Source: Eledone cirrhosa (taxonomy: Eukaryota). From it: a stretch of DNA of 64,000 nucleotides. The notes under the pieces were generated by a model, which made no database searches, was not told the origin of the DNA, and saw only the letters and a program-made list of their open reading frames with translations. How positions within the stretch are numbered: position 1 is the stretch's first letter; the number at the start of each line of letters is the position of its first letter. The position numbers and the translations under genes were made by a program. Location of the stretch: NCBI GenBank assembly GCA_964016885.1, contig OZ024742.1, positions 374,666,001-374,730,000 on the forward strand, written 5' to 3'. Below are positions 5,455 to 64,000 of this stretch, piece by piece.

Positions 5455-5760
5455 TGTAACTATAGCAACAGTGGTTCCCTCGGTCTCAAAGACCAAAGTA
5501 AGTGGAGAGGGGAAGGTGATGTTACTGTAACACCAACAACGTCTCTCTCTATATTCCTCGCTCAATAAAGAAGGGGGAGGGGGAAGGTAATGTTACTATA
5601 GCAACAGTGGTTCGCTCACTGACCAAAGTGGAGAGGGGAATGTAATATTTCTGTGACACCCAAAACTTCTCTCTCTATCTTCCTCTCTCTCTCTCTCTAA
5701 AGAAGGGGGAAGGGGAAGGTAATGTTACTATAAGACCTGTTATTCCTGTCTCTCTATATA
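5455..5760. repeat. Helitron-internal degenerate minisatellite (GGAGAGGGGAAGGTAATGTTACTATAGCAAC core)
   Basis: Core at ~5503, 5575, 5630 and 5707, alternating with (CT)n-containing spacers. A further copy lies at ~6486-6560. Confidence 0.75.
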
Positions 5761-6818: not shown

Positions 6819-7507
6819 GTATCTTGATAATATTGAAGCCTTAATCAAGACCAGCAGACATCTGCAACATTTTGCTTTAGGTTGTGTTGAAGAGCTCCTA
6901 GAACACTCCAATGTTTTTGTCAACCTATTGGCAGAACACCATGCATCTACTTTAGAGTCTTTGCATCTTGCCAGTGTGAAAGAAGACTCAGAGAGTTATG
7001 GTATCATAGAGTTGAATGCTACTGACTTTTGTCGTTTTATGGCTCTCCGTAGTCTTAGCCTTGATTATGATTATTTAACTAACGACCTCCTGCAAATCTT
7101 TATCGACCCCAAGAAGTCTAAGCTCGAAAACTTGGTTATTAATGTCCATGGTATTGATGCTGACCACGAAGTGATTACAAATGAAACTTGGCGCCGGTTA
7201 CGTAACCATTCTCCACACCTAGAAGTGACCTTAAACCTGATTCACTCATTCGAGGGTGTTGCTGGCCTCTTGAATATCTTGCAGCCTTCGATGCCCTTAG
7301 CCAAATTTCGGCAGATGTTCTGTTCCAATATCAACATTGCTTCAATTAGTTATATATCTTCACATTACAACAACACGTTGAAAGAAATTCATATTATCGA
7401 TGGTTTTGCTAATGGAGATCCTATAGTCTATGAGATTGAAGCTGATGAAGATCCATTTGTGATGTTGGCTTGGCGTTGTCCAAAATTGATGCATTTCACA
7501 TTAATAG
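6819..7507 (+). CDS. FBXO33: Internal coding exon (689 nt) of F-box only protein 33-like gene
   Basis: Polypyrimidine tract plus TTTGTAG| acceptor (AG at 6817-6818). Open frame from 6820: YLDNIEALIKTSRHLQHFALGCVEELL...LRSLSLDYDYL...EDPFVMLAWRCPKLMHFTLIG. Donor G|GTATGA at 7508. The motif EDPFVMLAWRC.KL resembles vertebrate FBXO33 EDPLVLLAWRCTKL (recalled from memory, not searched). The ORF-track start (6928) and stop (7578) are not the true exon limits. Confidence 0.85.
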
Positions 7508-7794
7508 GTATGATTATCTTTAAACTATTTTCAAAATACTCCACTTTATATTGGGGGAATATAAAAACTGTTCATTAAGCTTGAATGTTTTGTAAATATG
7601 TATAAGCTGATTTTATATTTAAATTCATCATCATCTTCATTTAATGTCCATCTTCCACGCTAGTTTTTAGAAACCTTTTTTGGTATGTTTTACTTTTGAT
7701 CATATTTCTTATTCTCTCACCACTTCTACTTTGTCTCATCGCAGTATCTGCTGTTAAACATCTATAATGGTATTTCCTTGGAACTATTTAGCAA

Positions 7795-7930
7795 CTTTGC
7801 TTTATTCTCAAAGCAGCAGTAGATAATGTCTAGTATTGAAATAACGTTTCTTCAGATCACTTTACTCTATTCTCAAAACAGCATTATATAATGCTATGTC
7901 TAATATTGAAATAATGTTTCTTTGAATCAT
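7795..7930. repeat. Diverged two-copy tandem duplication of about 66-70 bp
   Basis: TATTCTCAAA.CAGCA...ATAATG..TCTA.TATTGAAATAA.GTTTCTT..ATCA occurs twice in tandem. Confidence 0.7.
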
Positions 7931-7976
7931 CATCATTTAATGCCTGTTTACCTTTAACAAGGGTGAGATGGGTCTT

Positions 7977-8228
7977 CAGGTTTGGGGGGCCCCTCATACA
8001 CAAAAAAATGAGAATACAAGGCGAAGCTCCCAATTTTACATATCAAAGTTAACTTGGTGCAAATAATTTGAATTGAAAAGTTATACAGGTATTAGATTTA
8101 AAAAACAATCTAACCATCCTAAAATTAAAAAGCCCAGAAGAGGGCACAAATGAATTGCTGGTGGGGCTCCCCACTGAAGGGGGCCTGGGACAATTGCCCC
8201 CTTTTCCCCCCTATTAAATCCAGCCCTG
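7977..8228. mobile_element. Probable MITE / hAT-type DNA transposon remnant
   Basis: GGGGGGCCCC and GGGGGCC subterminal motifs, and an end ...TTAAATCCAGCCCTG resembling CAGGGCCGGATTTAA-type TIRs. The left TIR and TSD are not clear. Confidence 0.4.
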
Positions 8229-8612
8229 GTTATTGTTACATTTACCATATTTCTAAGGTAATAACAAATGAAAACGATAATGATTAATGGTCAGTCCAAA
8301 CATTTCTGAGGCTGTAAGTTAATTTTCAGCTTGCTTTCAGTATGTTATTGATACTTAAATGTAATGATCTGGAAGGATAAATTGACCTTCGAGTCAGTGA
8401 TTGATTTGAACAATGAAAGCAACCATGCAGCACCATTGTAATGACCAGATCAAGCTGTGTTTCTCTGAACTGTCTTAATCACTCTAATAACTGTTGCTAT
8501 GTTACCAAGTAGAAGGAGGTCTCATTAATTGTCTGGTTAATGCCACCAGAACACTGTTGTACTTTACAACATTCTGTAGATGTTGGCTATCAGGCAGAAG
8601 GTATATATATAT

Positions 8613-9139
8613 AGTTTAGGGAGCTGCTTCCTCTGCTGGCGAAGAAGGGTTTCTCCCTGCGTACGAAAGGCCGGTTGTATGATGCCTGTGTGAGGAGCGT
8701 GATGCTGCATGGTAGTGAGACATGGGCAGCAACTGCAGAGGATATGCGACGCCTGGAGAGAAATGAGGCAAGCATGCTCCATTGGATGTGCAGTGTAAAT
8801 GTGCGTGAACGACCCAGCATGAATGTGTTGAGAGAGAAACTGTGTCTGAAAGGGATAGAATGTAGTGTACGAGAGAGGAGACTGAGGTGGTATGGACATG
8901 TGATGCGCATGGAGGATGACCGATGGGTGAAGAAGTGCCAGGAAATGCCAGTTGAAGGAAGACGTGGTAGAGGTAGACCACGAAAAACATGGGCGGAGGT
9001 GGTGAGAACAGACCTCAGATCATTGAAGCTCACGGTGGAGATGACGAGGGACCGTGACGAGTGGAGAGATGCTGTGCTGAATAAGACCCGTTCCACCCTT
9101 GCAAGCAGGGAAAAGCGGACGTAAAATGATGATGATGAT
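8613..9139 (+). mobile_element. 5'-truncated RTE-clade LINE, family A (open C-terminal ORF fragment)
   Basis: FRELLPLL..KGRLYDACVRSVMLHGSETW...RRLRWYGHVMRM...GRRGRGRPRKTW (RTE C-terminal motifs). Ends in a (GAT)n tail and is flanked by (TA)n on both sides. Confidence 0.92.
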
Positions 9140-9178
9140 ATATATATATATTTAATGTTTATTCTCCTGCTAATATGA

Positions 9179-9214
<36 letters not shown>
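9139..9214. repeat. (TA)n/(CA)n microsatellites
   Basis: Directly visible dinucleotide runs between two LINE copies. Confidence 0.9.
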
Positions 9215-9215
<1 letters not shown>

Positions 9216-10125
9216 GGTAGGAACTCCATCCTCTGCCCCAAATGCAAACAATGGGTACACAAGAGATATAGTGGGATCTCAGGAAGTTTAACTAAGAATG
9301 TAGGCTTCACATGTAGCAGCTGTGCTGGGGCAGCAAACGGCCACAGGAAACAAGTACCTCCAAAGTCTGGGAGGGCTCTGTAGAAACAGTAGACAGCTTC
9401 TGCTACCTCGGTGACCGAATTAGCAGCGGAGGTGGGTGTTCGGAAAGTACAATAACTAGGGTAAGAACAGGATGGAAGAAGTTCAGGGAGCTACTGCCAC
9501 TGCTAGGTGCAAAAGGCTTTTCCCTCAAAATGAAAGGCAGACTGTATGATGCGTGTATACGAACAGCAATGTTACATGGTAGTGAGACCTGGGCGCTGAA
9601 GGTGGAAGACTTACGCAGATTAGAAAGAAACGAAGCCTGCATGCTCCGGTAGATGTGTAATAGTAATATACGTGAACGGCAAAGCATAAATGAATTGAGA
9701 GAGAGACTGAGCATAAGAGGAATCAAATGCTGTGTGCAGGAGAGGAGGTTACGTTGGTATGGACATGTGATGTGTATGAAGGATGACAGCTGCATAAAAA
9801 GGTGCAGAGCAGTAGAAGTCGATGGAAGCCGCGGAGTGGGGAGACCCAAGAAGACCTGGGATGAGGTGATAAAGGCCGACCTTACCCAATTGCACCTCTC
9901 AAGAGCAATGACACACGACCGTGACCTCTGGCGTCACGCAGTAATACAGAAGACCCGAACCCCCACAGGAACAAGCTGAAGCATATAGACAATATGCCCT
10001 CAAACCCTCCCACTGCAAGGTGGTCATGGAGGTGCCACAGCAAAAAAAGCACCCAGCCCACACTGTAAAGAGGCTGTCTAACCCATGCTAGTGTGGAAGA
10101 ACGGACGTAAAACGGTGATGATGAT
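9215..10125 (+). mobile_element. 5'-truncated RTE-clade LINE, family B (disrupted)
   Basis: GRNSILCPKCKQWVHKR..., VDSFCYLGD, LYDACIRTAMLHGSETW, in-frame TAG at ~9650, RLRWYGHV, GRPKKTW, then a 3'UTR and a (GAT)n tail followed by (TA)n. Confidence 0.92.
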
Positions 10126-10157
10126 ATATATATATATATATAAATATGTGTGTGTGT

Positions 10158-11726
10158 ATCATCATCATCACCGTTTTACGTCCGTTCTTCCATGCTAGCA
10201 TGGGTTAGACGGGTTGTCTGTGGGCAGTGTCTGATTGGCTGACCATGCCTTGCTCATACAGGAACTGATTTTGGCTTGATTTCTACAGCTGGATGCCCTT
10301 CCTAACACCAACCTCATTTACAGTGAGTGCCGGGTGCTTTTTTCCGTGGCGCCTACACGTCCACTTTACAGTGTGGGCTGGGGGCATATTGTCTATATGC
10401 TTCAGCTTGTACCCATGGGAGGTCGGGTACTCTGTATTACTGCGTGACGCCAGAGGTCACGGTCGTGTGTCATCGCCTTTGAGAGGTGCAACTGGGTAAG
10501 GTCGGCCCCTATCACCTCATCCCAGGTCTTCTAGTGCTCTGCACCTTTTTATGCAGCTGTCATCTTTTATACGCATCACATGTCCATACCAACGCATCCG
10601 CCTCTCCTGCACACAGCATTTGATTCCTCTTATGCTCAGTCTCTCTCTCAATTCATTTATGCTTTGTCGTTCGCATATATTACTATTACACATCCATCGG
10701 AGCATGCAGGCTTCGTTTCTTTCTAATCTACGTAAGTCTTCCACCTTCAGCGCCCAGATCTCACTACCATGTTACATTGTTGTTCGGATACACGCATCAT
10801 ACAGTCTGCCTTTCATTTTTGGGGAGAAGCCTTTTGCAGCTAGCAGTGGTAGCAGTTCCCTGAACTTCTTCCATCCTGTTCTTACCCTAGTTATTGTACT
10901 TTCTGAACACCCACCTCCGCTGCTAATTCGGTCACCTAGGTAGCAGAAGCTGTCTACTGTCTCTACAGAGCCCTACCAGAGATTGGTGGTACTTGTTTCC
11001 TGTGGCTGTTTGCTGCTTGCTGTCCCAGCACAGCTGCTACATGTGAAGCCTACATTCTTAATTAAGCTTCCTGAGTTCCCGCTACATCTCTTGTGTACCC
11101 ATTGTTTGCATTTGGGGCAGAGAATGGAGTTCCTACCTACACCTTTCCTACATACTGAGCAAGGCCATTTACCTGAGGGGATCTGGGTTCTGTTTTCTCA
11201 GCTACTTACAAGGACCTTAGTCTTTGTCATGTTGACTTTGAGACTCTTTCTTTCTAGTCCCTGCTTCCAAGTTTGGAATTTCTTCTCTAGTTCTACCATA
11301 GATTCAGCTATAAGTGCGAGGTCATCTGCATACAGGAGTTTCTATGGGCATCCGGTCTTAAACTCCTCCGTTATTGCCTGCAGGACTATGATGAACAGGA
11401 GAGGGCTAAGAACAGAGCCCTTGGTGGACACCAAACTGTATGCTAAATTCCTCGCTATACTCATTGCTAATCCTAACTTTGCTGACTGCTCCCCTATACA
11501 TGGCTTATACAGCTTTCACAAGTCATTCATCTACTCCTAGTTTTCTAAGAGCCCACCAGATTATAGTACGTGGAACTCTGTCAAAGGCTTTCTCGAGATC
11601 GACGAATGCCAGGTAGAGTGGCTTACTTTTAGCTAGGTACTTTTCCTGTAACTGCCTCACAAGGAAGAGGGCATCAGTGGTGCCTCTTTCTGGTACAAAC
11701 CCAAATTGCATCTCATCTAGTTTCAT
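10158..11726 (-). mobile_element. 5'-truncated RTE-clade LINE, family B, with RT core (frameshifted)
   Basis: Minus strand: QFGFVPERGTTDALFLVRQLQEKY..AFVDLEKAFDRVPR, GVHQG/VLSPLLFIIVL, LLYADDLAL, VNMTKTKVL, a C4HC3 finger, FCYLG, RWYGHV. The (ATC)n at 10158 is the 3' tail. Confidence 0.95.
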
Positions 11727-11920
11727 GTGTATACATATAATGGATTATCTTGCTAATTTCGACATAGGGCCAACAAGTTAGTTCTTATTTTTCTCTAGTT
11801 CTAATACTTAAATTTCTCATGACATAAACATCCAACCAATGTAGATTAGTCGACAGATTGGATATAAAAGTGGATTGTTGTAGAAATTAGTTAGATGGAG
11901 ACTTTGTCTTTGCCTTAAGA

Positions 11921-12045
11921 CGACCCCGTAAGGATGAAAGCAAAGTTAACCTCAGCGGGATTTGAACTCAGACCATAAAGGGCCGTAACTCTTTGCTGCA
12001 AAGCATGGCGTCCGACGCTACCGATACTGCCAATCCACCGCCCTT
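11921..12045 (-). mobile_element. tRNA-derived SINE, 5' part
   Basis: Minus strand: GGCGGTGGATTGGCAGTATCGG (A box) ... GAGTTCAAATCCC (B box) GCTGAGGTTAACTTTGCTTTCATCCTTACGGGGTCG. Confidence 0.8.
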
Positions 12046-12104
12046 ATCTCTCTAATAATGGTCGCTATGTTATCAACAATAACAGTTCTCACTAATAATT
12101 CTGA

Positions 12105-12237
12105 TTTAGGCACAAGACCAACAATTTGGGGGGAGGGGGGAAGTCAATTAAATCGACCCCAGTGCATTACTGGTACTTCATTTTATCAACCCCGTAAGGA
12201 TGAAAGGCAAAGCTAACCTCAGCAGGATTTGAACTTG
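12105..12237 (-). mobile_element. tRNA-derived SINE, 3' part (same family)
   Basis: Minus strand: GTTCAAATCC..GCTTTGCCTTTCATCCTTACGGGGTTGATAAAATGAAGTACCAG..CTGGGGTCGATTTAATTGAC..CTTGTGCC. Confidence 0.8.
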
Positions 12238-12245
12238 GTTTCTAA

Positions 12246-12452
12246 TTGAAGCACAAGGCCAGCAATTTGAAGAGAAGGGCAAAGTCCATTAAATCGAATC
12301 CAGTGTGTTACTGGTACTTTATTTTATCGACCTTGTAAGGATGAAAGGTAAAGCATGCCTCGGCAGGACTTGAACTCAGGATATAAAGAGCCGTAACTCC
12401 ATGTTGCAAAGCATGTACGACACTGTACCAATTACTGCCAATCCACTGCCCT
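12246..12452 (-). mobile_element. tRNA-derived SINE, near full length (same family)
   Basis: A box TGGCAGTAATTGG, B box GAGTTCAAGTCC, central CCTTTCATCCTTACAAGGTCGATAAAATAAAGTACCAG, and tail GGCCTTGTGC. Confidence 0.8.
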
Positions 12453-12568
12453 GGTTCTGACTAATAATGGCAGCTATGTTATCACCAAATAGCTAGTCTC
12501 ACTAATTGTCTGGCTAATGCCACCACAGTTATGTTGTGCTTTACAACCAACATTTTGGATATATTGAC

Positions 12569-12952
12569 CATCATCATCATATCCATCATCATCCGTCTGT
12601 TCCATGCTTGTTTGTGTTGGCTATGTCTTTCTCAGTAAAGCATCTCACCACTTGTGTTCTTTTGTCATTTCTTCCATGAGCTGCAGTGATCTGAGATCAG
12701 CTCTTACCACTTCAATCCAGGTCATCCTTGGTCTTCCTCTACTGCAGTCTCCTTCCACTGGGATTACTTGGCACTTCTTCACCCAGCGATCATCATCCAT
12801 GTGCATCACATGTCCATACCAACGTCGTCTCCTCTCCTGCACATTACTACTGATTCCTCTTACACCCAGTTTCTCCCTCAGTTCATTCCTCTTTTGTCGT
12901 TCTCACACATTAACATTACACATCCATTGAAGCATACTTGTCTCATTTCTCT
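12569..12952 (-). mobile_element. Older 5'-truncated RTE LINE, family A-like
   Basis: QERRRRWYGHVMHMDDDRWVKKCQVIPVEGDCSRGRPRMTWIEVVRADLRSL is clearly homologous to the 8675-9124 peptide. (CAT)n tail at ~12569. Confidence 0.9.
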
Positions 12953-13422
12953 TTTGCGTATTATATATATTTTATATACATGTATATGGAATGTATATCG
13001 TTGGTGTAGGTCTTGGCTGGAGATGGCAAATTTTCCATCACACCCTTTTATCCTCCTTAGTTCTTCAGCCATTTTCCTCCAAGTGTTCTGCACTAATATT
13101 GAGGCCACACCTTCTGTCTTCTGTGTTCCTAGAAGTCGATGTTGGTGCTGTTCATTGTCTTGTTTCAGTTGGCCTTTGTAGTGTTACAAAGGGCCGCCAT
13201 GTGACTTCATGTTTATGCTGAGTTCACTGTAAAATAGTTGCTAATAAGAAGAGCATCTGAATAATGTACAACAGTCAGGGGAGTGAACAGTGTATGAGTC
13301 ATGAGATACACACACATGCGTGCTTGTGTATGGTAATCATAATAATGATGGCACTTTCTTATCATTACTCATCAATGTTTAGCATTTATTTTCTGTTTTC
13401 ATAGATTAGATAGATTAGCACT

Positions 13423-16400
13423 TTCTGGGGACAGACGGCTAAGATGACAGTGTCTCACTCATAGGACTGTCATGTTCTGGGGATAGACAGACAGCTAGGA
13501 TGACTGTGTCACACTCATAGGACTGTCATGTTCTGGGGACAGACACACAGCTAAGATGACTGTCTCACTGATATGACTGTCATGTTCTGGGGATAGAGCG
13601 CTAAGATGACTGTCTCACTCATAGGACTGTCATGTACTGGGGATAGACAGCTAAGATGACTGTGTCTCACTCATAGGACTGTCATGTTCTGGGGACAGAC
13701 AGCTAAGATGACTGCGTCTCACTCATAGGACTGTCATGTTCTGGGGACAGAGAGGACAGCTAAGATGACTGTCTCACTCATAGGACTGTCATGTTCTGTG
13801 GATAGACAGACAGCTAAGATGACTGTGTCTCACTCATAGGACTGTCATGTACTGGGGACAGAGAGCTAAGATGACTGCGTCTCACTCATAGGACTGTCAT
13901 GTTCTGGGGACAGACAGCTAAGATGACTGCGTCTCACTCATAGGACTGTCATGTTCTGGGGATAGACAGACAGCTAGGATGACTGTGTCTCACTCATAGG
14001 ACTGTCATGTTCTGGGGATAGACAGACAGCTAAGATGACTGTGTCTCACTCATAGGACTGTCATGTTCTGGGGATAGACAGACAGCTAAGATGACTGCGT
14101 CTCACTCATAGGACTGTCATTTACTGGGGATAGACAGCTAGGATGACGGTGTCTCACTCATAGCACTGTCATGTTCTGGGGGCAGACAGCTAAGATGACT
14201 GCGTCTCACTCAGAGGACTGTCATTTACTGGGGATAGACAGCTAGGATGACGGTGTCTCACTCATAGCACTGTCATGTTCTGGGGGCAGACAGCTAAGAT
14301 GACTGCGTCTCACTCAGAGGACTGTCATGTCTGGGGATAGACAGCTAAGATGACAGTGTCTCACTCATAGGACTGTCATGTTCTGGGGATAGATAGACAG
14401 CTAAGATGACTGTGTCTCACCCATAAGACTGTCCTATTCTGGAGATAGATAGAGAGCTAAGATGACTGTGTCACACTCATAGGACTGTCATGTTTCGGGG
14501 ATAGACAGCTAAGATGACTGTCTCACTCATAGGTCTGTCATGTTCTGGGGATAGATAGACAGCGAAGATGACTGTGTCACACTCATAGGTCTGTCATGTT
14601 CTGGGGACAGACAGACAGCTAAGATGACTGTGTCTCACTCATAGGACTGTCATGTTCTGGGGATAGATAGACAGCGAAGATGACTGTGTCACACTCATAG
14701 GTCTGTCATGTTCTGGGGACAGACAGACAGCTAAGATGACTGTCTCACTCATAGGACTGTCATGTTCTGGGGATAGATAGACAGCTAAGATGACTGTGTC
14801 TCACTCATAGGTCTGTCATGTTCTGGGGATAGATAGACAGCGAAGATGACTGTGTCACACTCATAGGTCTGTCATGTTCTGGGGACAGACAGACAGCTAA
14901 GATGACTGTCTCACTCATAGGACTGTCATGTTCTGGGGATAGATAGACAGCGAAGATGACTGTGTCACACTCATAGGTCTGTCATGTTCTGGGGACAGAC
15001 AGACAGCTAAGATGACTGTGTCTCACTCATAGGACTGTCATGTTCTGGGGATAGATAGACAGCTAAGATGACTGTGTCTCACTCATAGGTCTGTCATGTT
15101 CTGGGGACAGACAGACAGCTAAGATGACTGTGTCTCACTCATAGGTCTGTCATGTTCTGGGGACAGACAGACAGCTAAGATGACTGTGTCTCACTCATAG
15201 GACTGTCATGTTCTGGGGATAGACAGACAGCTAAGATGACTGTGTCTCACTCATAGGACTGTCATGTTCTGGGGACAGACAGACAGCTAAGATGACTGTG
15301 TCTCACTGATAGGACTGTCCTGTTCTGGGGATAGACAGACAGCTAAGATGACTGTGTCTCACTCATAGGACTGTCATGTTGTTGCGATAGACAGCTAAGA
15401 TGACTGTCACACTCATAGGACTTTCCTGTTCTGGGGATAGACAGCTAAAAAGACTGTGTCTCCCTGATAGGACTGTCATGTTCTGGGGACAGACAGACAG
15501 CTAAGATGACTGTCACACTCATAGGACTGTCATGTTCTGGGGATAGACAGCTAAGATGAATGTGTCTCACTCATAGGACTGTCATGTTGTTGCGATAGAC
15601 AGCTAAGATGACTGTCACACTCATAGGACTTTCCTGTTCTGGGGATAGACAGCTAAGATGACTGTGTCACTCATAGGACTGTCATGTTCTGGGGATAGAC
15701 AGATAAGATGTCTGTGTCTCACTCATAGGACTGTCATCTTCTGGGGATAGACAGACAGCTAAGATGACTGAGTCTCACTCATAGGACTGTCATGTTCTGG
15801 GGATAGACAGCTAAGATGTCTGTGTCTCACTCATAGGACTGTCATGTTCTGGGGATAGATAGACAGCTAAGATGACTGTGTCTCAATCATAGGACTGTCA
15901 TGTTCTGGGGATAGACAGACAGCTAAGATGACTGAGTCTCACTCATAGGACTGTCATGTTCTGGAGAGAGACAGCTAAGATGACTGTGTCTCACTCATAG
16001 GACTGTCATGTTCTGGGCACAGACAGACAGCTAAGATGACTGTGTCTCACTCATAGGACTGTCATGTTCTGGGGACAGACAGCTAAGATGACTGTGTCTC
16101 ACTCATAGGACTGTCATGTTCTGGGACAGACAGACAGCTAAGATGACTGTGTCTCACTCATAGGATTGTCATGTTCTGGGGATAGATAGACAGCTAAGAT
16201 GACTGTGTCTCACTCATAGGACTGTCATGTTCTGGGGATAGATAGACAGCTAAGATGACTGTGTCTCACTGATAGGACTGTCATGTTCTGGAGAGAGACA
16301 GCTAAGATGACTGTGTCTCACTCATAGGACTGTCATGTTCTGGGGACAGAGAGGACAGCTAAGATGACTGTCTCACTCATAGGACTGTGATGTTCCGGGG

Positions 16401-52400: not shown

Positions 52401-55400
52401 CAGCTAAGATGACTGTCTCACTCATAGGACTGTCATGTTCTGGGGATAGACAGACAGCTAAGATGACTGTGTCTCACTCATAGGACTGTCATGTTCTGGG
52501 GATAGACAGACAGCTAAGATGACTGTGTCTCACTCATAGGACTGTCATGTTCTGGGGATAGACAGACAGCTAAGATGACTGTGTCTCACTCATAGGACTG
52601 TCATGTTCTGGGGATAGATAGACAGCTAAGATGACTGTCTCACTCATAGGACTGTCATGTTCTGGGGATAGACAGACAGCTAAGATGACTGTGTCTCACT
52701 CATAGGACTGTCATGTTCTGGGGATAGACAGACAGCTAAGATGACTGTGTCTCACTCATAGGACTGTCATGTTCTGGGGATAGATAGACAGCTAAGATGA
52801 CTGTCTCACTCATAGGACTGTCATGTTCTGGGGACAGACAGACAGCTAAGATGACTGTGTCTCACTGATAGGACTGTCATGTTCTGGGGATAGACAGACA
52901 GCTAAGATGACTGTGTCTCACTCATAGGACTGTCATGTTCTGGGGATAGATAGACAGCTAAAATGACTGTGTCTCACTCATAGGACTGTCATGTTCTGGG
53001 GATAGATAGACAGCTAAAATGACTGTGTCTCACTCACAGGACTGTCATGTTCTGGAGATAGACGGCTAAGATGACTGTCTCACTCATAGGACTGTCATGT
53101 ACTGGGGATAGATAGACAGCGAAGATGACTGTGTCACACTCATAGGACTGTCATGTTCTGGGGACAGACAAACAGCTAAGATGACTGTGTCTCACTGATA
53201 GGACTGTCATGTTCTAGGGAGACACAGCTAAGATGACTGTGTCTCACTCATAGGACTGTCATGTTCTGGGGATAGATAGACAGCTAAGATGACTGTGTCT
53301 CACTCATAGGACTGTCATGCTCTGGGGATAGATAGACAGCTAAGATGACTGTGTCTCACTGATAGGACTGTCATGTTCTGGGGATAGTTCGACAGCTAAG
53401 ATGACTGTGTCTCACTCATAGGACTGTCATGTTCTGGGGACAGACAGACAGCTAAGATGACTGTGTCTCACTGATAGGACTGTCATGTTCTGGGGATAGA
53501 CAGACAGCTAAGATGACTGTGTCTCACTGATAGGACTGTCATGTTCTGGGGATAGACAGACAGCTAAGATGACTGTGTCTCACTCATAGGACTGTCATGT
53601 TCTGGGGATAGACAGCTAAGATGACTGTGTCTCACTGATAGGACTGTCATGTTCTGGGGATAGATAAACAGCTAAGATGACTGTGTCTCACTCATAGGAC
53701 TGTCATGTTCTGGGGATAGACAGCTAAGATGACTGTGTCTCACTGATAGGACTGTCATGTTCTGGGGATAGATAGACAGCTAAGATGACTGTGTCACACT
53801 CATAGGACTGTCATGTTCTGGGGATAGACAGCTAAGATGACTGTGTCTCACTCATAGGACTGTCATGTTCTGGGGATAGACAGACAGCTAAGATGACTGT
53901 GTCTCACTCATAGGACTGTCATGTTCTGGGGATAGATAGACAGCTAAGATGACTGTCTCACTCATAGGACTGTCATGTTCTGGGGATAGACAGACAGCTA
54001 AGATGACTGTGTCTCACTGATAGGACTGTCATGTTCTGGGGATAGACAGACAGCTAAGATGACTGTGTCTCACTCATAGGACTGTCATGTTCTGGGGATA
54101 GATAGACAGCTAAGATGACTGTGTCTCACTGATAGGACTGTCATGTTTTGGGATAGATAGACAGCTAAGATGACTGTGTCTCACTCATAGGACTGTCATG
54201 TTCTGGGGATAGATAGAGAGCTAAGATGACTGTGTCACACTCATAGGACTGTCATGTTCTGGGGATAGACAGACAGCTAAGATGACTGTCTCACTCATAG
54301 GACTGTCATGTTCTGGGGATAGACAGACAGCTAAGATGACTGTGTCTCTCTGATAGGACTGTCATGTTCTGGGGATAGACAGACAGCTAAGATGACTGTG
54401 TCTCACTCATAGGACTGTCATGTTCTGGGGATAGATAGACAGCTAAGATGACTGTGTCTCACTCATAGGACTGTCATGTTCTGGGGATAGATAGACAGCT
54501 AAGATGACTGTGTCTCACTCATAGGACTGTCATGTTCTGGGGATAGACACACAGCTAAGATGACTGTGTCTCACTCATAGGACTGTCATGTTCTGGGGAT
54601 AGATAGACAGCTAAGATGACTGTGTCACACTCATAGGACTGTCATGTTCTGGGGATAGATAGACAGCTAAGATGACTGTGTCTCACTCATAGGACTGTCA
54701 TGTTCTGGGAATAGATAGACAGCTAAGATGACTGTGTCTCACTCATAGGACTGTCATGTTCTGGGGATAGACAGACAGCTAAGATGACTGTGTCTCACTG
54801 ATAGGACTGTCATGTTCTGGGGATAGACAGACAGCTAAGATGACTGTGTCTCACTCATAGGACTGTCATGTTCTGGGGATAGACAGACAGCTAAGATGAC
54901 TGTGTCTCACTCATAGGACTGTCATGTTCTGGGGATAGATAGACAGCTAAGATGACTGTGTCACACTCATAGGACTGTCATGTTCTGGGGATAGATAGAC
55001 AGCTAAGATGACTGTGTCTCACTCATAGGACTGTCATGTTCTGGGGATAGACAGACAGCTAAGATGACTGTGTCTCACTGATAGGACTGTCATGTTCTGG
55101 GGATAGACAGACAGCTAAGATGACTGTGTCTCACTCATAGGACTGTCATGTTCTGGGGATAGATAGACAGCTAAGATGACTGTGTCACACTCATAGGATT
55201 GTCATGTTCTGGGGATAGATAGACAGCTAAGATGACCGTGTCTCACTCATAGGACTGTCATGTTCTGGGGATAGATAGACAGCTAAGATGACTGTGTCTC
55301 ACTCATAGGACTGTCATGTTCTGGGGACAGACAGATAGCTAAGATGACTGTGTCTCACTGATAGGACTGTCATGTTCTGGGGATAGACAGACAGCTAAGA

Positions 55401-58400
55401 TGACTGTCTCACTCATAGGACTGTCATGTTCTGGGGATAGATAGACAGCTAAGATGACTGTGTCTCACTCATAGGACTGTCATGTTCTGGGGATAGACAG
55501 CTAAGATGACTGTGTCTCACTGATAGGACTGTCATGGTCTGGGGATAGATAAACAGCTAAGATGACTGTGTCTCACTCATAGGACTGTCATGTTCTGGGG
55601 ATAGACAGCTAAGATGACTGTGTCTCACTGATAGGACTGTCATGTTCTGGGGATAGATAGACAGCTAAGATGACTGTGTCTCACTAATAGGACTGTCATG
55701 TACTGGGGATAGACAGACAGCTAAGATGACTGTGTCTCACTAATAGGACTGTCATGTTCTGGGGATAGACAGACAGCTAAGATGACTGTGTCTCACTGAT
55801 AGGACTGTCATGTTCTGGGGATAGACAGCTAAGATGACAGTGTCTCACTGATAGGACTGTCATGTACTGGGGATAGACAGACAGCTAAGATGACTGTGTC
55901 ACACTCATAGGACTGTCATGTTCTGGGGATAGACAGACAGCTAAGATGACTGTGTCTCACTCATATGACTGTCATGTTCTGGGGATAGATAGACAGCTAA
56001 GATGACTGTCTCACTCATAGGACTGTCATGTTCTGGGGATAGACAGACAGCTAAGATGACTGTGTCTCACTCATAGGACTGTCATGTTCTGGGGATAGAC
56101 AGACAGCTAAGATGACTGTGTCTCACTCATAGGACTGTCATGTTCTGGGGATAGACAGACAGCTAAGATGACTGTGTCTCACTCATAGGACTGTCATGTT
56201 CTGGGGATAGATAGACAGCTAAGATGACTGTCTCACTCATAGGACTGTCATGTTCTGGGGATAGACAGACAGCTAAGATGACTGTGTCTCACTCATAGGA
56301 CTGTCATGTTCTGGGGATAGACAGACAGCTAAGATGACTGTGTCTCACTCATAGGACTGTCATGTTCTGGGGATAGATAGACAGCTAAGATGACTGTCTC
56401 ACTCATAGGACTGTCATGTTCTGGGGACAGACAGACAGCTAAGATGACTGTGTCTCACTGATAGGACTGTCATGTTCTGGGGATAGACAGACAGCTAAGA
56501 TGACTGTGTCTCACTCATAGGACTGTCATGTTCTGGGGATAGATAGACAGCTAAGATGACTGTGTCTCACTAATAGGACTGTCATGTACTGGGGATAGAC
56601 AGACAGCTAAGATGACTGTGTCACACTCATAGGACTGTCATGTTCTGGGGATAGACAGACAGCTAAGATGACTGTGTCTCACTCATAGGACTGTCATGTT
56701 CTGGGGATAGATAGACAGCTAAGATGACTGTCTCACTCATAGGACTGTCATGTTCTGGGGATAGACAGACAGCTAAGATGACTGTGTCTCACTCATAGGA
56801 CTGTCATGTTCTGGGGATAGACAGACAGCTAAGATGACTGTGTCTCACTCATAGGACTGTCATGTTCTGGGGATAGACAGACAGCTAAGATGACTGTGTC
56901 TCACTCATAGGACTGTCATGTTCTGGGGATAGATAGACAGCTAAGATGACTGTCTCACTCATAGGACTGTCATGTTCTGGGGATAGACAGACAGCTAAGA
57001 TGACTGTGTCTCACTCATAGGACTGTCATGTTCTGGGGATAGACAGACAGCTAAGATGACTGTGTCTCACTCATAGGACTGCCATGTTCTGGGGATAGAT
57101 AGACAGCTAAGATGACTGTCTCACTCATAGGACTGTCATGTTCTGGGGACAGACAGACAGCTAAGATGACTGTGTCTCACTGATAGGACTGTCATGTTCT
57201 GGGGATAGACAGACAGCTAAGATGACTGTGTCTCACTCATAGGACTGTCATGTTCTGGGGATAGATAGACAGCTAAGATGACTGTGTCTCACTAATAGGA
57301 CTGTCATGTACTGGGGATAGACAGACAGCTAAGATGACTGTGTCACACTCATAGGACTGTCATGTTCTGGGGTTAGACAGACAGCTAAGATGACTGTGTC
57401 TCACTCATAGGACTGTCATGTTCTGGGGATAGATAGACAGCTAAGATGACTGTCTCACTCATAGGACTGTCATGTTCTGGGGATAGACAGACAGCTAAGA
57501 TGACTGTGTCTCACTCATAGGACTGTCATGTTCTGGGGATAGACAGACAGCTAAGATGACTGTGTCTCACTCATAGGACTGTCATGTTCTGGGGATAGAC
57601 AGACAGCTAAGATGACTGTGTCTCACTCATAGGACTGTCATGTTCTGGGGATAGATAGACAGCTAAGATGACTGTCTCACTCATAGGACTGTCATGTTCT
57701 GGGGATAGACAGACAGCTAAGATGACTGTGTCTCACTCATAGGACTGTCATGTTCTGGGGATAGACAGACAGCTAAGATGACTGTGTCTCACTCATAGGA
57801 CTGTCATGTTCTGGGGATAGATAGACAGCTAAGATGACTGTCTCACTCATAGGACTGTCATGTTCTGGGGACAGACAGACAGCTAAGATGACTGTGTCTC
57901 ACTGATAGGACTGTCATGTTCTGGGGATAGACAGACAGCTAAGATGACTGTGTCTCACTCATAGGACTGTCATGTTCTGGGGATAGATAGACAGCTAAAA
58001 TGACTGTGTCTCACTCATAGGACTGTCATGTTCTGGGGATAGATAGACAGCTAAAATGACTGTGTCTCACTCACAGGACTGTCATGTTCTGGAGATAGAC
58101 GGCTAAGATGACTGTCTCACTCATAGGACTGTCATGTACTGGGGATAGATAGACAGCGAAGATGACTGTGTCACACTCATAGGACTGTCATGTTCTGGGG
58201 ACAGACAAACAGCTAAGATGACTGTGTCTCACTGATAGGACTGTCATGTTCTAGGGAGACACAGCTAAGATGACTGTGTCTCACTCATAGGACTGTCATG
58301 TTCTGGGGATAGATAGACAGCTAAGATGACTGTGTCTCACTCATAGGACTGTCATGCTCTGGGGATAGATAGACAGCTAAGATGACTGTGTCTCACTGAT

Positions 58401-61400
58401 AGGACTGTCATGTTCTGGGGATAGTTCGACAGCTAAGATGACTGTGTCTCACTCATAGGACTGTCATGTTCTGGGGACAGACAGACAGCTAAGATGACTG
58501 TGTCTCACTGATAGGACTGTCATGTTCTGGGGATAGACAGACAGCTAAGATGACTGTGTCTCACTGATAGGACTGTCATGTTCTGGGGATAGACAGACAG
58601 CTAAGATGACTGTGTCTCACTCATAGGACTGTCATGTTCTGGGGATAGACAGCTAAGATGACTGTGTCTCACTGATAGGACTGTCATGTTCTGGGGATAG
58701 ATAGACAGCTAAGATGACTGTGTCTCACTCATAGGACTGTCATGTTCTGGGGATAGACAGACAGCTAAGATGACTGTGTCTCACTCATAGGACTGTCATG
58801 TTCTGGGGATAGATAGACAGCTAAGATGACTGTCTCACTCATAGGACTGTCATGTTCTGGGGATAGACAGACAGCTAAGATGACTGTGTCTCACTCATAG
58901 GACTGTCATGTTCTGGGGATAGACAGACAGCTAAGATGACTGTGTCTCACTCATAGGACTGTCATGTTCTGGGGATAGATAGACAGCTAAGATGACTGTC
59001 TCACTCATAGGACTGTCATGTTCTGGGGACAGACAGACAGCTAAGATGACTGTGTCTCACTGATAGGACTGTCATGTTCTGGGGATAGACAGACAGCTAA
59101 GATGACTGTGTCTCACTCATAGGACTGTCATGTTCTGGGGATAGATAGACAGCTAAAATGACTGTGTCTCACTCATAGGACTGTCATGTTCTGGGGATAG
59201 ATAGACAGCTAAAATGACTGTGTCTCACTCACAGGACTGTCATGTTCTGGAGATAGACGGCTAAGATGACTGTCTCACTCATAGGACTGTCATGTACTGG
59301 GGATAGATAGACAGCGAAGATGACTGTGTCACACTCATAGGACTGTCATGTTCTGGGGACAGACAAACAGCTAAGATGACTGTGTCTCACTGATAGGACT
59401 GTCATGTTCTAGGGAGACACAGCTAAGATGACTGTGTCTCACTCATAGGACTGTCATGTTCTGGGGATAGATAGACAGCTAAGATGACTGTGTCTCACTC
59501 ATAGGACTGTCATGCTCTGGGGATAGATAGACAGCTAAGATGACTGTGTCTCACTGATAGGACTGTCATGTTCTGGGGATAGTTCGACAGCTAAGATGAC
59601 TGTGTCTCACTCATAGGACTGTCATGTTCTGGGGACAGACAGACAGCTAAGATGACTGTGTCTCACTGATAGGACTGTCATGTTCTGGGGATAGACAGAC
59701 AGCTAAGATGACTGTGTCTCACTGATAGGACTGTCATGTTCTGGGGATAGACAGACAGCTAAGATGACTGTGTCTCACTCATAGGACTGTCATGTTCTGG
59801 GGATAGACAGCTAAGATGACTGTGTCTCACTGATAGGACTGTCATGTTCTGGGGATAGATAAACAGCTAAGATGACTGTGTCTCACTCATAGGACTGTCA
59901 TGTTCTGGGGATAGACAGCTAAGATGACTGTGTCTCACTGATAGGACTGTCATGTTCTGGGGATAGATAGACAGCTAAGATGACTGTGTCACACTCATAG
60001 GACTGTCATGTTCTGGGGATAGACAGCTAAGATGACTGTGTCTCACTCATAGGACTGTCATGTTCTGGGGATAGACAGACAGCTAAGATGACTGTGTCTC
60101 ACTCATAGGACTGTCATGTTCTGGGGATAGATAGACAGCTAAGATGACTGTCTCACTCATAGGACTGTCATGTTCTGGGGATAGACAGACAGCTAAGATG
60201 ACTGTGTCTCACTGATAGGACTGTCATGTTCTGGGGATAGACAGACAGCTAAGATGACTGTGTCTCACTCATAGGACTGTCATGTTCTGGGGATAGATAG
60301 ACAGCTAAGATGACTGTGTCTCACTGATAGGACTGTCATGTTTTGGGATAGATAGACAGCTAAGATGACTGTGTCTCACTCATAGGACTGTCATGTTCTG
60401 GGGATAGATAGAGAGCTAAGATGACTGTGTCACACTCATAGGACTGTCATGTTCTGGGGATAGACAGACAGCTAAGATGACTGTCTCACTCATAGGACTG
60501 TCATGTTCTGGGGATAGACAGACAGCTAAGATGACTGTGTCTCTCTGATAGGACTGTCATGTTCTGGGGATAGACAGACAGCTAAGATGACTGTGTCTCA
60601 CTCATAGGACTGTCATGTTCTGGGGATAGATAGACAGCTAAGATGACTGTGTCTCACTCATAGGACTGTCATGTTCTGGGGATAGATAGACAGCTAAGAT
60701 GACTGTGTCTCACTCATAGGACTGTCATGTTCTGGGGATAGACACACAGCTAAGATGACTGTGTCTCACTCATAGGACTGTCATGTTCTGGGGATAGATA
60801 GACAGCTAAGATGACTGTGTCACACTCATAGGACTGTCATGTTCTGGGGATAGATAGACAGCTAAGATGACTGTGTCTCACTCATAGGACTGTCATGTTC
60901 TGGGAATAGATAGACAGCTAAGATGACTGTGTCTCACTCATAGGACTGTCATGTTCTGGGGATAGACAGACAGCTAAGATGACTGTGTCTCACTGATAGG
61001 ACTGTCATGTTCTGGGGATAGACAGACAGCTAAGATGACTGTGTCTCACTCATAGGACTGTCATGTTCTGGGGATAGACAGACAGCTAAGATGACTGTGT
61101 CTCACTCATAGGACTGTCATGTTCTGGGGATAGATAGACAGCTAAGATGACTGTGTCACACTCATAGGACTGTCATGTTCTGGGGATAGATAGACAGCTA
61201 AGATGACTGTGTCTCACTCATAGGACTGTCATGTTCTGGGGATAGACAGACAGCTAAGATGACTGTGTCTCACTGATAGGACTGTCATGTTCTGGGGATA
61301 GACAGACAGCTAAGATGACTGTGTCTCACTCATAGGACTGTCATGTTCTGGGGATAGATAGACAGCTAAGATGACTGTGTCACACTCATAGGATTGTCAT

Positions 61401-64000
61401 GTTCTGGGGATAGATAGACAGCTAAGATGACCGTGTCTCACTCATAGGACTGTCATGTTCTGGGGATAGATAGACAGCTAAGATGACTGTGTCTCACTCA
61501 TAGGACTGTCATGTTCTGGGGACAGACAGATAGCTAAGATGACTGTGTCTCACTGATAGGACTGTCATGTTCTGGGGATAGACAGACAGCTAAGATGACT
61601 GTCTCACTCATAGGACTGTCATGTTCTGGGGATAGATAGACAGCTAAGATGACTGTGTCTCACTCATAGGACTGTCATGTTCTGGGGATAGACAGCTAAG
61701 ATGACTGTGTCTCACTGATAGGACTGTCATGGTCTGGGGATAGATAAACAGCTAAGATGACTGTGTCTCACTCATAGGACTGTCATGTTCTGGGGATAGA
61801 CAGCTAAGATGACTGTGTCTCACTGATAGGACTGTCATGTTCTGGGGATAGATAGACAGCTAAGATGACTGTGTCTCACTAATAGGACTGTCATGTACTG
61901 GGGATAGACAGACAGCTAAGATGACTGTGTCTCACTAATAGGACTGTCATGTTCTGGGGATAGACAGACAGCTAAGATGACTGTGTCTCACTGATAGGAC
62001 TGTCATGTTCTGGGGATAGACAGCTAAGATGACAGTGTCTCACTGATAGGACTGTCATGTACTGGGGATAGACAGACAGCTAAGATGACTGTGTCACACT
62101 CATAGGACTGTCATGTTCTGGGGATAGACAGACAGCTAAGATGACTGTGTCTCACTCATAGGACTGTCATGTTCTGGGGATAGATAGACAGCTAAGATGA
62201 CTGTCTCACTCATAGGACTGTCATGTTCTGGGGATAGACAGACAGCTAAGATGACTGTGTCTCACTCATAGGACTGTCATGTTCTGGGGATAGACAGACA
62301 GCTAAGATGACTGTGTCTCACTCATAGGACTGTCATGTTCTGGGGATAGACAGACAGCTAAGATGACTGTGTCTCACTCATAGGACTGTCATGTTCTGGG
62401 GATAGATAGACAGCTAAGATGACTGTCTCACTCATAGGACTGTCATGTTCTGGGGATAGACAGACAGCTAAGATGACTGTGTCTCACTCATAGGACTGTC
62501 ATGTTCTGGGGATAGACAGACAGCTAAGATGACTGTGTCTCACTCATAGGACTGTCATGTTCTGGGGATAGATAGACAGCTAAGATGACTGTCTCACTCA
62601 TAGGACTGTCATGTTCTGGGGACAGACAGACAGCTAAGATGACTGTGTCTCACTGATAGGACTGTCATGTTCTGGGGATAGACAGACAGCTAAGATGACT
62701 GTGTCTCACTCATAGGACTGTCATGTTCTGGGGATAGATAGACAGCTAAGATGACTGTCTCACTCATAGGACTGTCATGTTCTGGGGATAGACAGACAGC
62801 TAAGATGACTGTGTCTCACTCATAGGACTGTCATGTTCTGGGGATAGACAGACAGCTAAGATGACTGTGTCTCACTCATAGGACTGTCATGTTCTGGGGA
62901 TAGACAGACAGCTAAGATGACTGTGTCTCACTCATAGGACTGTCATGTTCTGGGGATAGATAGACAGCTAAGATGACTGTCTCACTCATAGGACTGTCAT
63001 GTTCTGGGGATAGACAGACAGCTAAGATGACTGTGTCTCACTCATAGGACTGTCATGTTCTGGGGATAGACAGACAGCTAAGATGACTGTGTCTCACTCA
63101 TAGGACTGCCATGTTCTGGGGATAGATAGACAGCTAAGATGACTGTCTCACTCATAGGACTGTCATGTTCTGGGGACAGACAGACAGCTAAGATGACTGT
63201 GTCTCACTGATAGGACTGTCATGTTCTGGGGATAGACAGACAGCTAAGATGACTGTGTCTCACTCATAGGACTGTCATGTTCTGGGGATAGATAGACAGC
63301 TAAGATGACTGTGTCTCACTAATAGGACTGTCATGTACTGGGGATAGACAGACAGCTAAGATGACTGTGTCACACTCATAGGACTGTCATGTTCTGGGGT
63401 TAGACAGACAGCTAAGATGACTGTGTCTCACTCATAGGACTGTCATGTTCTGGGGATAGATAGACAGCTAAGATGACTGTCTCACTCATAGGACTGTCAT
63501 GTTCTGGGGATAGACAGACAGCTAAGATGACTGTGTCTCACTCATAGGACTGTCATGTTCTGGGGATAGACAGACAGCTAAGATGACTGTGTCTCACTCA
63601 TAGGACTGTCATGTTCTGGGGATAGACAGACAGCTAAGATGACTGTGTCTCACTCATAGGACTGTCATGTTCTGGGGATAGATAGACAGCTAAGATGACT
63701 GTCTCACTCATAGGACTGTCATGTTCTGGGGATAGACAGACAGCTAAGATGACTGTGTCTCACTCATAGGACTGTCATGTTCTGGGGATAGACAGACAGC
63801 TAAGATGACTGTGTCTCACTCATAGGACTGTCATGTTCTGGGGATAGATAGACAGCTAAGATGACTGTCTCACTCATAGGACTGTCATGTTCTGGGGACA
63901 GACAGACAGCTAAGATGACTGTGTCTCACTGATAGGACTGTCATGTTCTGGGGATAGACAGACAGCTAAGATGACTGTGTCTCACTCATAGGACTGTCAT
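13423..64000. repeat. Satellite array, 56-bp consensus monomer (50/52/54/56-bp variants), roughly 900 head-to-tail copies, extending past the window end
   Basis: Consensus TTCTGGGGATAGAYAGACAGCTAAGATGACTGTGTCTCACTCATAGGACTGTCATG (e.g. CTGG at 38641 and 38697 = 56 bp). Length variants come from +/- one GAYA unit and +/- one GT. Single orientation throughout, with no non-satellite insertion seen. Copy number is estimated as ~50.6 kb / ~55 bp. Confidence 0.99.

What the first reader, a model, noticed from the sequence alone, without database searches (positions are those of the whole stretch)
6819..64000. A >50-kb satellite array may sit inside an intron of the conserved gene FBXO33
Seen: the exon ends in a clean phase-1 donor (G|GTATGA, 7508) right after ...AWRCPKLMHFTLIG. 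Nearly all of 7508-13422 is TE or microsatellite, and pure satellite follows to the window end. Knowledge (recalled): FBXO33 continues past this point (GY....NLIAIARLRG-like segment). I could not find that segment on the + strand. Inference: the next exon is >56 kb downstream, so Pol II would transcribe about 900 or more satellite units. That would be satellite-driven intron gigantism in an ordinary ubiquitin-ligase gene, as known for Drosophila Y fertility genes.
Basis: partly seen in the sequence, partly recalled or inferred. Interest (0 to 1): 0.75.

Follow-up and report, generated by a model that had tools for sequence, protein, structure and literature searches.

The report
Satellite-filled giant intron in octopod FBXO33
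In an octopus-group animal, one intron of the intact, single-copy gene FBXO33 is 126,000 bases long because it holds about 2,160 copies of a 56-base repeat that likely grew out of a retrotransposon tail; the same repeat lies the other way round in a second gene, and such repeat blocks are common near this chromosome end, so this is likely tolerated local repeat growth that the cell would transcribe and splice out, not a control device.

Summary
Confirmed in the assembly. FBXO33 is single-copy, with four in-frame coding exons. Intron 2 is 125,660 bp and holds a gap-free 118.7-kb array of about 2,160 56-bp units. Contigs of three related organisms join exon 2 to exon 3. No RNA of this species was available, so transcription through the array is inferred.

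The unit matches an inner segment of a dispersed retrotransposon-tail element, and both flanks carry the rest of it, so the array likely grew in place. A close relative lacks the repeat at 90% likeness, so it is likely young. The same unit fills 12.6 kb of a VPS33B intron 27 Mb away, in the opposite orientation to transcription.

FBXO33 is not special: 9 of 20 samples from the chromosome's last 30 Mb are wholly tandem array, and VPS33B has a 171-kb array-filled intron. The scan noted satellite-filled introns and retrotransposon-tail satellites before on other DNA of this genome. It works like avian intron 'stuttering' and reptile SINE-derived satellites at larger scale, not like Drosophila Y-loop genes.

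The parts
6819..7507 (+). FBXO33 coding exon 2 (689 bp). Exon 1, with the F-box, lies 75.4 kb upstream at C3:374,596,467-374,597,416. Exon 3 (C3:374,799,168-374,799,328) and exon 4 (from C3:374,800,927) lie beyond the window.
7508..64000 (+). First 56.5 kb of intron 2 (125,660 bp in all, GT-AG, phase 1); 94.8% of the intron is tandem repeat
   Evidence: join to exon 3 seen in relatives' contigs
8615..9130 (+). 3' fragment of a LINE (C-terminal ORF piece and short-repeat tail); RTE label recalled
   Evidence: relatives found, none named as a retrotransposon
9214..10130 (+). LINE 3' fragment, 87% identical over 871 bases to the minus-strand copy that follows; the two face tail to tail
10156..11744 (-). 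Broken LINE with a reverse-transcriptase piece (RVT_1, E 2.4e-7) and a PHD-finger piece; its 3' tail is homologous to both flanks of the array
13356..13422 (-). Tail end of the host element in which the array likely grew; the rest of the element follows the array's far end
13430..64000 (+). First 50.6 kb (924 units) of a 118,684-bp array of about 2,160 units of 56 bp (length variants 50, 52, 54); it continues to C3:374,798,113

Best explanation
A 118.7-kb array of a 56-bp unit fills 94% of intron 2 of an intact, single-copy octopod FBXO33 gene; it likely arose in place and recently from one segment of a retrotransposon-tail element, and it would be transcribed and spliced out as tolerated filler. 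Likely steps: (1) an element carrying a LINE 3' tail sat in the intron, antisense to the gene; (2) an inner segment of about 56 bp duplicated in tandem; (3) unequal exchange or slippage, including block duplications of 2-11 kb, grew it to about 2,160 units between the two halves of the element; (4) an early version of the array was copied by DNA recombination into another element copy in an intron of VPS33B, 27 Mb away. The likely driver is position: this chromosome end is about half made of locus-specific arrays. Shown: gene structure, array extent, homology of unit and flanks, second array, regional baseline. Inferred: order of events, mechanism, transcription in this species, lack of function.
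For: Gene. There is one match for exon 2 in the genome and four exons in order on one strand. The spliced frame is 648 aa without a stop, all three introns are GT-AG, and residues 284-648 are 83% identical to an unnamed relative's protein. In 3 of 4 runs of related organisms, a contig runs from the end of exon 2 straight into the first bases of exon 3. Array. There is no N and one orientation. The longest run of identical units is 116 (about 6.4 kb), among 322 unit types in 2,159 units. Contig depth in a run of the same organism is about 33,000-37,000 on the unit against 11-12 on single-copy flank, in line with about 2,400 assembled units (rough). Origin. Two single-unit element copies match the unit (0 of 500 shuffles each), the right flank (0 of 500 each) and the left flank (4 and 0 of 500), in that order. 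Both flanks match the tail of a LINE with an RVT_1 piece. Youth. A close relative (37 differences over about 520 bases around exon 3) has zero depth on the unit at 90% likeness. Spread. Of 1,085 exact 30-mer matches genome-wide, 972 are here and 101 in a 12.6-kb array inside a 39-kb intron of VPS33B; 76 of its 228 units occur exactly in the FBXO33 array. Baseline. 9 of 20 distal 10-kb samples are wholly array, against 1 of 20 along the rest of the chromosome. VPS33B has a 171-kb intron in which 6 of 6 samples are one 34-bp array.
Against: No RNA of this species was found, so expression and splicing across the array are untested. Of the three relatives' runs, only one is on record as RNA. No listed contig bridges an array junction; only the right junction was laid, and 10,501 pieces were not shown. 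The run that supports copy number may be the assembly's own sample, and the tool warns that depth is no copy number. The two single-unit copies were found with a pattern made from the unit and the right flank, so part of their match is by construction. The unit itself does not match the tail of the LINE at 10,156-10,480 beyond chance (134 of 500). The left flank of the second array does not match the element (94 and 355 of 500), so pure growth in place does not explain it. Only 4 of 25 array rows match this element, so it seeds a minority of arrays. The baseline is 40 evenly spaced samples from one chromosome.
Confidence: 0.72

Rival explanations
1. The array is a selected regulatory device, as proposed for Drosophila Y-loop genes: it delays or limits FBXO33 expression, or its RNA builds a nuclear structure that needs special RNA-binding proteins.
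For: The intron is more than 20 times the 5.4-kb mean reported for Octopus minor (PMC6279123, passage). The transcribed strand of the array has no AATAAA and only 2 GTRAG in 118.7 kb, against 1,882 GTRAG on the other strand.
Against: The repeat is absent at 90% likeness from a close relative. Unrelated arrays fill about half of the region and other genes' introns. The same unit sits in VPS33B the other way round, with 226 GTRAG on the transcribed strand, so orientation does not look constrained.
Confidence: 0.08
2. The array silences or truncates this gene: FBXO33 is intact but poorly expressed, or polymerase stops in the array, and the gene is on its way to loss.
For: No RNA of this species was seen. 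Satellite arrays are often heterochromatic (general knowledge). In birds, stuttering co-localises with gene loss (PMC12954441, Discussion).
Against: All four exons are in frame with canonical sites, exons 3 and 4 are 82% and 88% identical to the relative's protein, and no second copy exists. The transcribed strand has no AATAAA or ATTAAA. VPS33B keeps its exons in order around three arrays.
Confidence: 0.08
3. Assembly artefact: the array is misplaced into the intron or its length is much inflated.
For: No spanning long read was seen. Identical blocks of up to 6.4 kb exist. A reduced-representation run under the same species label has no read on the unit.
Against: There is no gap, and exons flank the array in the right order. 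The two flanks are the two halves of one element. Unit variants form a gradient, with shared types at both ends. Depth fits thousands of units. The array has no PstI, SbfI, EcoRI or SphI site, so a RAD library could miss it.
Confidence: 0.07
4. The array was born elsewhere (in VPS33B or at the unlocated third site), or moved through an RNA copy, and was inserted into the FBXO33 intron ready-made.
For: The VPS33B array is rich in the variants found at the two ends of the FBXO33 array, which may be the older types. Twelve exact matches lie at a place I could not locate.
Against: Only the FBXO33 array has both halves of the host element. The VPS33B array lacks the element's tail, where LINE-driven copying would start (recalled mechanism), and its right flank is only 73% identical to the FBXO33 one while units are near-identical.
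Confidence: 0.05

Closest known systems
Intron 'sequence stuttering' on avian dot chromosomes (Hron et al. 2026, PMC12954441; read: abstract, part 1 of 2 of two Results sections, whole Discussion)
   Same: Locally expanded imperfect tandem repeats of tens of bases, confined to introns, with coding exons intact. They are a property of a chromosomal region rather than a gene class, and differ between related species.
   Different: The example intron there is 1.6-2.9 kb; here one array is 118.7 kb and regular. The array is 46% GC, whereas that paper links stuttering to GC-rich sequence. The unit comes from a retrotransposon tail, while dot euchromatin is described as devoid of interspersed repeats. 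The array has seeded a second gene 27 Mb away. Length polymorphism was not tested.
SINE-derived satellites (sSat) of squamate reptiles (Vassetzky et al. 2023, PMC10702118; read: abstract, passages, Discussion)
   Same: A tandem unit taken from part of a retroposon, with terminal units that run on into the rest of the element (both ends in minor variants). Long loci are homogeneous, and subtelomeric regions are preferred.
   Different: The unit is 56 bp (70-290 nt there) and there are about 2,160 copies (up to about 1,000 there). The host is a LINE-tail element not shown to be a tRNA-headed SINE. The array lies in introns of conserved genes; the word 'intron' does not occur in that paper's main text.
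Intron gigantism of Drosophila Y-loop genes kl-3, kl-5, ks-1 (Fingerhut et al. 2019, PMC6508621, author summary and introduction read; Fingerhut et al. 2024, PMC11207136, abstract read)
   Same: An intron dominated by satellite DNA that polymerase would have to cross; coding DNA is about 1% of the 205-kb span from start to stop codon.
   Different: 0.13 Mb rather than megabases; a complex 56-bp unit rather than 5-bp satellites; an F-box gene on a 379-Mb chromosome; no evidence of testis-only expression, loops or dedicated RNA-binding proteins.
FBXO33 (F-box only protein 33), SCF substrate adaptor
   Same: N-terminal F-box (PF12937, PF00646 over cut-off) and a conserved C-terminal region 54-58% identical to named mollusc FBXO33-like proteins.
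   Different: A long low-complexity insert (Thr, Asn, Asp, His runs; roughly 170 aa more than the three named mollusc homologues aligned) at the end of exon 1; a shorter version is in the unnamed relative.

Membership tests
FBXO33 orthologues | N-terminal F-box domain | tested here: met
   Exon 1 scores 43.5 bits on PF12937 (cut-off 24.3)
FBXO33 orthologues | Best sequence matches are FBXO33 proteins, over the whole length; single copy | tested here: met
   the informative source names among the 32 hits are FBXO33 or FBXO33-like, the rest unnamed, hypothetical or generic F-box; no tree was built
Avian-type intron stuttering | Repeat clusters confined to introns, exons intact | tested here: met
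   The array ends 1,054 bases before exon 3; the frame is intact
Avian-type intron stuttering | Local origin of the repeat | tested here: inconclusive
   The flanks support growth in place for FBXO33, but the same unit also fills a VPS33B intron 27 Mb away
Avian-type intron stuttering | Extensive intron length variation among individuals | not testable with these tools
   No long reads of other individuals were offered
Avian-type intron stuttering | Occasional copying of exon edges into the intron | tested here: not met
   For this intron the unit matches the retroelement, and the exon 3-4 protein has no hit in the array; exon 2 has one match in the genome
Retroposon-derived satellites (sSat type) | Unit homologous to part of an interspersed element | tested here: met
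   Scores 58 and 59 against shuffle means near 18, 0 of 500 each; not met against the more distant LINE tail in the window
Retroposon-derived satellites (sSat type) | Terminal units extend into the rest of the element | tested here: met
   Both flanks of the FBXO33 array; right flank only for the VPS33B array
Retroposon-derived satellites (sSat type) | Parent is a SINE (RNA-derived head, non-autonomous) | not tested
   The parent shares a LINE 3' tail; I did not look for a tRNA head, so it may be a truncated LINE
Retroposon-derived satellites (sSat type) | Preference for subtelomeric regions | tested here: met
   4.1 Mb and 31.6 Mb from the end of a 378.9-Mb contig; arrays enriched distally
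Drosophila Y-loop intron gigantism | Megabase introns of simple satellites | tested here: not met
   125,660 bp; 56-bp unit
Drosophila Y-loop intron gigantism | Y-linked and expressed only in spermatocytes | not testable with these tools
   No tissue RNA of this species; sex linkage of C3 not tested
Drosophila Y-loop intron gigantism | Lampbrush-like loops and dedicated RNA-binding proteins (Blanks, Heph) | not testable with these tools
   Needs RNA FISH and genetics

The most novel reading that the evidence does not exclude
One young satellite now sits in two housekeeping genes in opposite orientations: 118.7 kb sense in FBXO33 and 12.6 kb antisense in VPS33B. Their pre-mRNAs would be complementary over kilobases and could pair into long double-stranded RNA in an animal group known for heavy A-to-I editing, coupling the two genes or feeding small-RNA control of the array. 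More broadly, octopods would have a general, non-germline way to transcribe 100-170 kb of pure satellite in essential genes, with transcribed introns at chromosome ends acting as nurseries from which satellites spread.
Probability: 0.12. Interest if true: 0.75.

Novelty: new variant of a known kind. Interest (0 to 1): 0.45.

Why it matters
If these genes are expressed as their intact frames suggest, ordinary cells of this octopod routinely transcribe and splice more than 100 kb of near-perfect tandem repeat. That has mostly been studied in fly sperm cells and, at kilobase scale, in bird dot chromosomes. This locus keeps its history readable: parent element on both sides, a young age, and one offshoot in another gene in reverse orientation. 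That offshoot is a natural control for whether repeat orientation, cryptic splice donors or sense-antisense pairing matter. It also warns that short-read cephalopod assemblies will break such genes and understate intron sizes. I found no cephalopod report of this in the listings of five library searches, which miss most subscription journals. FBXO33 itself does not look special.

Tried and rejected
Next exon hidden in 7508-13422 or on the other strand: rejected. Orphan duplicate exon: rejected. Array orientation selected to avoid splice donors: suggested, rejected by the reverse case in VPS33B. A fixed higher-order repeat: not supported; the best offsets reach only about 10% identical units and the pattern is irregular block duplication. 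A coding role for the array: the longest stop-free frames are 90 and 95 codons. Shared origin of the two arrays by segmental duplication: rejected, since the flanks share only dispersed repeats. Locating the 12 reverse-strand matches: failed; one search repeated one search's list, and one search scored 40 of 223 candidates, all listed hits in this array. Run X15 did not cover the exon 2 donor. RAD run X23 had no read on the unit; uninformative. Naming the LINE clade by homologues gave no informative name. SRA1 check: one weak exon hit (E 0.19) with a 7-kb or longer array 13 kb away, too little to confirm an intron. Cluster look-up of the closest protein gave no names. Pfam scan near the second array covered 77 of 137 open frames. 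The FBXO33 paper search was seen as a listing only. No supplementary files were read; those of PMC12954441 and PMC13282606 may bear on intron and satellite sizes.

Full report
Observation. The exon at 6819-7507 translates without a stop and ends in a phase-1 donor at 7508. Among 32 longer homologues, the informative names are FBXO33 or FBXO33-like, and the closest is an unnamed 549-aa protein at 89% identity. One tandem array with a 56-bp period runs from 13,430 to the end of the window. Between exon and array lie LINE fragments, one with a reverse-transcriptase piece. The organism is an octopod by inference: a neighbouring gene matches VPS33B of Octopus bimaculoides and Argonauta at 97% and 91% over one exon.

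The gene. The window is G000:C3:374,666,001-374,730,000, about 4 Mb from the end of a 378.9-Mb contig. Exon 2 has one match in the genome. The relative's full protein finds four exons in order on the plus strand; all other hits are weak (E 3.4e-5 or worse). The introns are 75,402, 125,660 and 1,598 bp, all GT-AG. The spliced frame is 648 aa, and residues 284-648 are 83% identical to the relative. Exon 1 carries the F-box. The C-terminal part has no hit in the window. In 3 of 4 runs of related organisms laid on exon 2, a contig leaves the exon at the donor and continues with the first bases of exon 3; the fourth did not cover the donor. One of the three is on record as RNA, one is guessed to be RNA and one has no record. 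No RNA run of this species was listed among 24 runs, so transcription through the array is an inference from an intact single-copy gene.

The array. It spans C3:374,679,430-374,798,113: 118,684 bp and 2,164 copies, with no N in the 260 kb examined and a single orientation. Intron 2 is 94.8% tandem repeat, intron 1 is 15.3% and intron 3 is 0%. There are 322 unit types among 2,159 units, with 1.0-2.1 mismatches on average to the commonest type, lowest in the inner left part. Identical runs of 37-116 units recur at offsets of 41-200 units, which points to recent block duplications rather than a fixed higher-order repeat; some variants are enriched at both ends. In a run of the same organism, summed contig depth is 33,000-37,000 on the unit and 11-12 on unique flank, in line with about 2,400 assembled units. 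That run may be the assembly's own sample, depth is a rough measure, and no listed contig bridged the right junction. A close relative with 37 differences over about 520 bases around exon 3 has no depth on the unit at 90% likeness, nor has a more distant one. The array is therefore likely young.

Origin of the unit. The sequence right after the array seeds 34 hits to a dispersed element in the 380 kb at hand. Two genomic copies found by a unit-plus-flank pattern hold one unit each. Against them the unit scores 58 and 59 (0 of 500 shuffles each), the right flank 86 and 70 (0 of 500 each) and the left flank 33 and 47 (4 and 0 of 500), in the order left flank, unit, right flank. Part of the unit and right-flank match is by construction; the left-flank match and the order are not. 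Both flanks also match the 3' tail of the LINE at 10,156-11,744 (0 of 500 each), while the unit does not (134 of 500), so the parent is a different subfamily. The RTE label for this LINE is recalled and matches earlier scan notes; no call named it. The simplest reading is tandem duplication of one inner segment inside a resident element, then growth in place.

A second site. An exact 30-mer of the unit has 1,085 matches in the genome: 972 in this array, 101 in a 12.6-kb array of 230 units at C3:347,338,711-347,351,333, and 12 on the reverse strand that I could not place. Of 228 units of the second array, 76 occur exactly in the first, and it resembles the end-type variants. Its right flank is another copy of the element (73% identical), and its left flank does not match the element. 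It lies in a 39-kb intron of a VPS33B gene on the minus strand, whose exons run in order over 254 kb. I infer DNA-level recombination into a second element copy; LINE-driven copying is less likely because the tail is missing. This site is a natural control. In FBXO33 the transcribed strand has 0 AATAAA and 2 GTRAG; in VPS33B it has 226 GTRAG. Orientation does not look selected, on a sample of two.

Is FBXO33 special? No. Of 20 evenly spaced 10-kb samples from the last 30 Mb of C3, 9 are at least 95% tandem array and 11 hold 1 kb or more; 52% of sampled bases are in such arrays, with different units. Of 20 samples along the rest of C3, 1 is at least 95% array and another 91%, both towards the other end (13% of bases). 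VPS33B has a 171-kb intron in which 6 of 6 samples are one 34-bp array, and a 20-kb intron filled by a 48-bp array. A HAD-family gene 5.5 Mb from the end of C2, called LHPP in an earlier scan note, has a 31.8-kb array between exon hits. Four of 25 array rows match this same element, one being the second array itself. Earlier scan notes report satellite-filled introns in several other genes and retrotransposon-tail satellites elsewhere in this genome; none matched this unit. These notes are leads, not support.

How it most likely works. The array is likely a by-product of a repeat-prone chromosome end. Retrotransposon tails supply some seeds, unequal exchange or slippage grows them, exons are protected by selection, and introns swell. 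Polymerase would cross 126 kb, at a cost of roughly half an hour to two hours at recalled rates of 1-4 kb per minute, and the transcribed strand offers no canonical poly(A) signal. Rivals are a selected timing or structural role (0.08), silencing of the gene (0.08), misassembly (0.07) and birth elsewhere (0.05).

Comparison. It works like avian sequence stuttering (PMC12954441) but at a far larger scale, without GC richness, and with a jump to a second gene; length polymorphism is untested, so I do not file it as a member. It fits SINE-derived satellites of reptiles in anatomy and position (PMC10702118), though the parent was not shown to be a SINE. It fails the size and repeat-type features of Drosophila Y-loop genes (PMC6508621, PMC11207136). 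Mean intron length in Octopus minor is given as 5.4 kb (PMC6279123, passage). Part 1 of 3 of a repeat annotation of O. vulgaris lists RTE among active LINEs and does not discuss intronic arrays (PMC13282606). A 2026 coleoid genome-architecture paper has no occurrence of 'satellite' or 'tandem' (PMC13652810). The listings of five searches showed no cephalopod report of satellite-filled introns.

Verdict. The gene is one case of a regional pattern. The added value here is a readable origin and a reverse-orientation twin in a second gene. Interest 0.45.

Noticed in passing
G000:C3:347,333,315-347,587,017 (L034-L042, L096-L101), minus strand: VPS33B gene spread over 254 kb, with a 171-kb intron filled by a 34-bp array, a 20-kb intron filled by a 48-bp array, and a 39-kb intron holding 12.6 kb of the FBXO33 unit in antisense.
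   Followed up: yes
G000:C3 distal 30 Mb (L045-L064): About half of the sampled DNA is locus-specific tandem arrays with units of 18-65 bp; arrays also appear at 17 and 34 Mb, towards the other end.
   Followed up: partly
G000:C2:410,670,000-410,782,000 (L085-L092): HAD-family (LHPP-like) gene with a 31.8-kb 37-bp array between exon hits and a 28-bp array seen in three samples over 60 kb beyond the last hit.
   Followed up: partly
L003:1900-2445 (FBXO33 exon 1): The coding exon carries a long in-frame trinucleotide-like expansion (runs of Thr, Asn, Asp, His), about 100 aa longer than in the closest relative and absent in the three named mollusc homologues aligned.
   Followed up: no
L032:7310 to L033:3415 (C3:347,317,310-347,323,415): 6.1-kb array of a 59-bp unit taken from the neighbouring segment of the same retrotransposon-tail element; two 48-bp arrays (L056, L059) also match it.
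   Followed up: partly
L032:2920-5757 (+): 946-codon stop-free frame with WD40 repeats, a single large exon or gene just beyond the end of VPS33B.
   Followed up: no
L036:3696-6185 (+): 830-codon stop-free frame without a Pfam hit, inside the same VPS33B intron, just after the second array.
   Followed up: no
window 9214-11744: Two related LINE 3' fragments (87% identical over 871 bases) face tail to tail in intron 2 and could form a long hairpin in the pre-mRNA, a possible editing substrate.
   Followed up: no
window 4414-4975: 69-bp repeat of 2.3 copies beside what looks like an open frame on the minus strand, flanked by a further repeat at 5460-5740; probably part of a mobile element in intron 1.
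   Followed up: no
G000, place unknown: Twelve reverse-strand exact matches to the unit suggest a third small array.
   Followed up: partly
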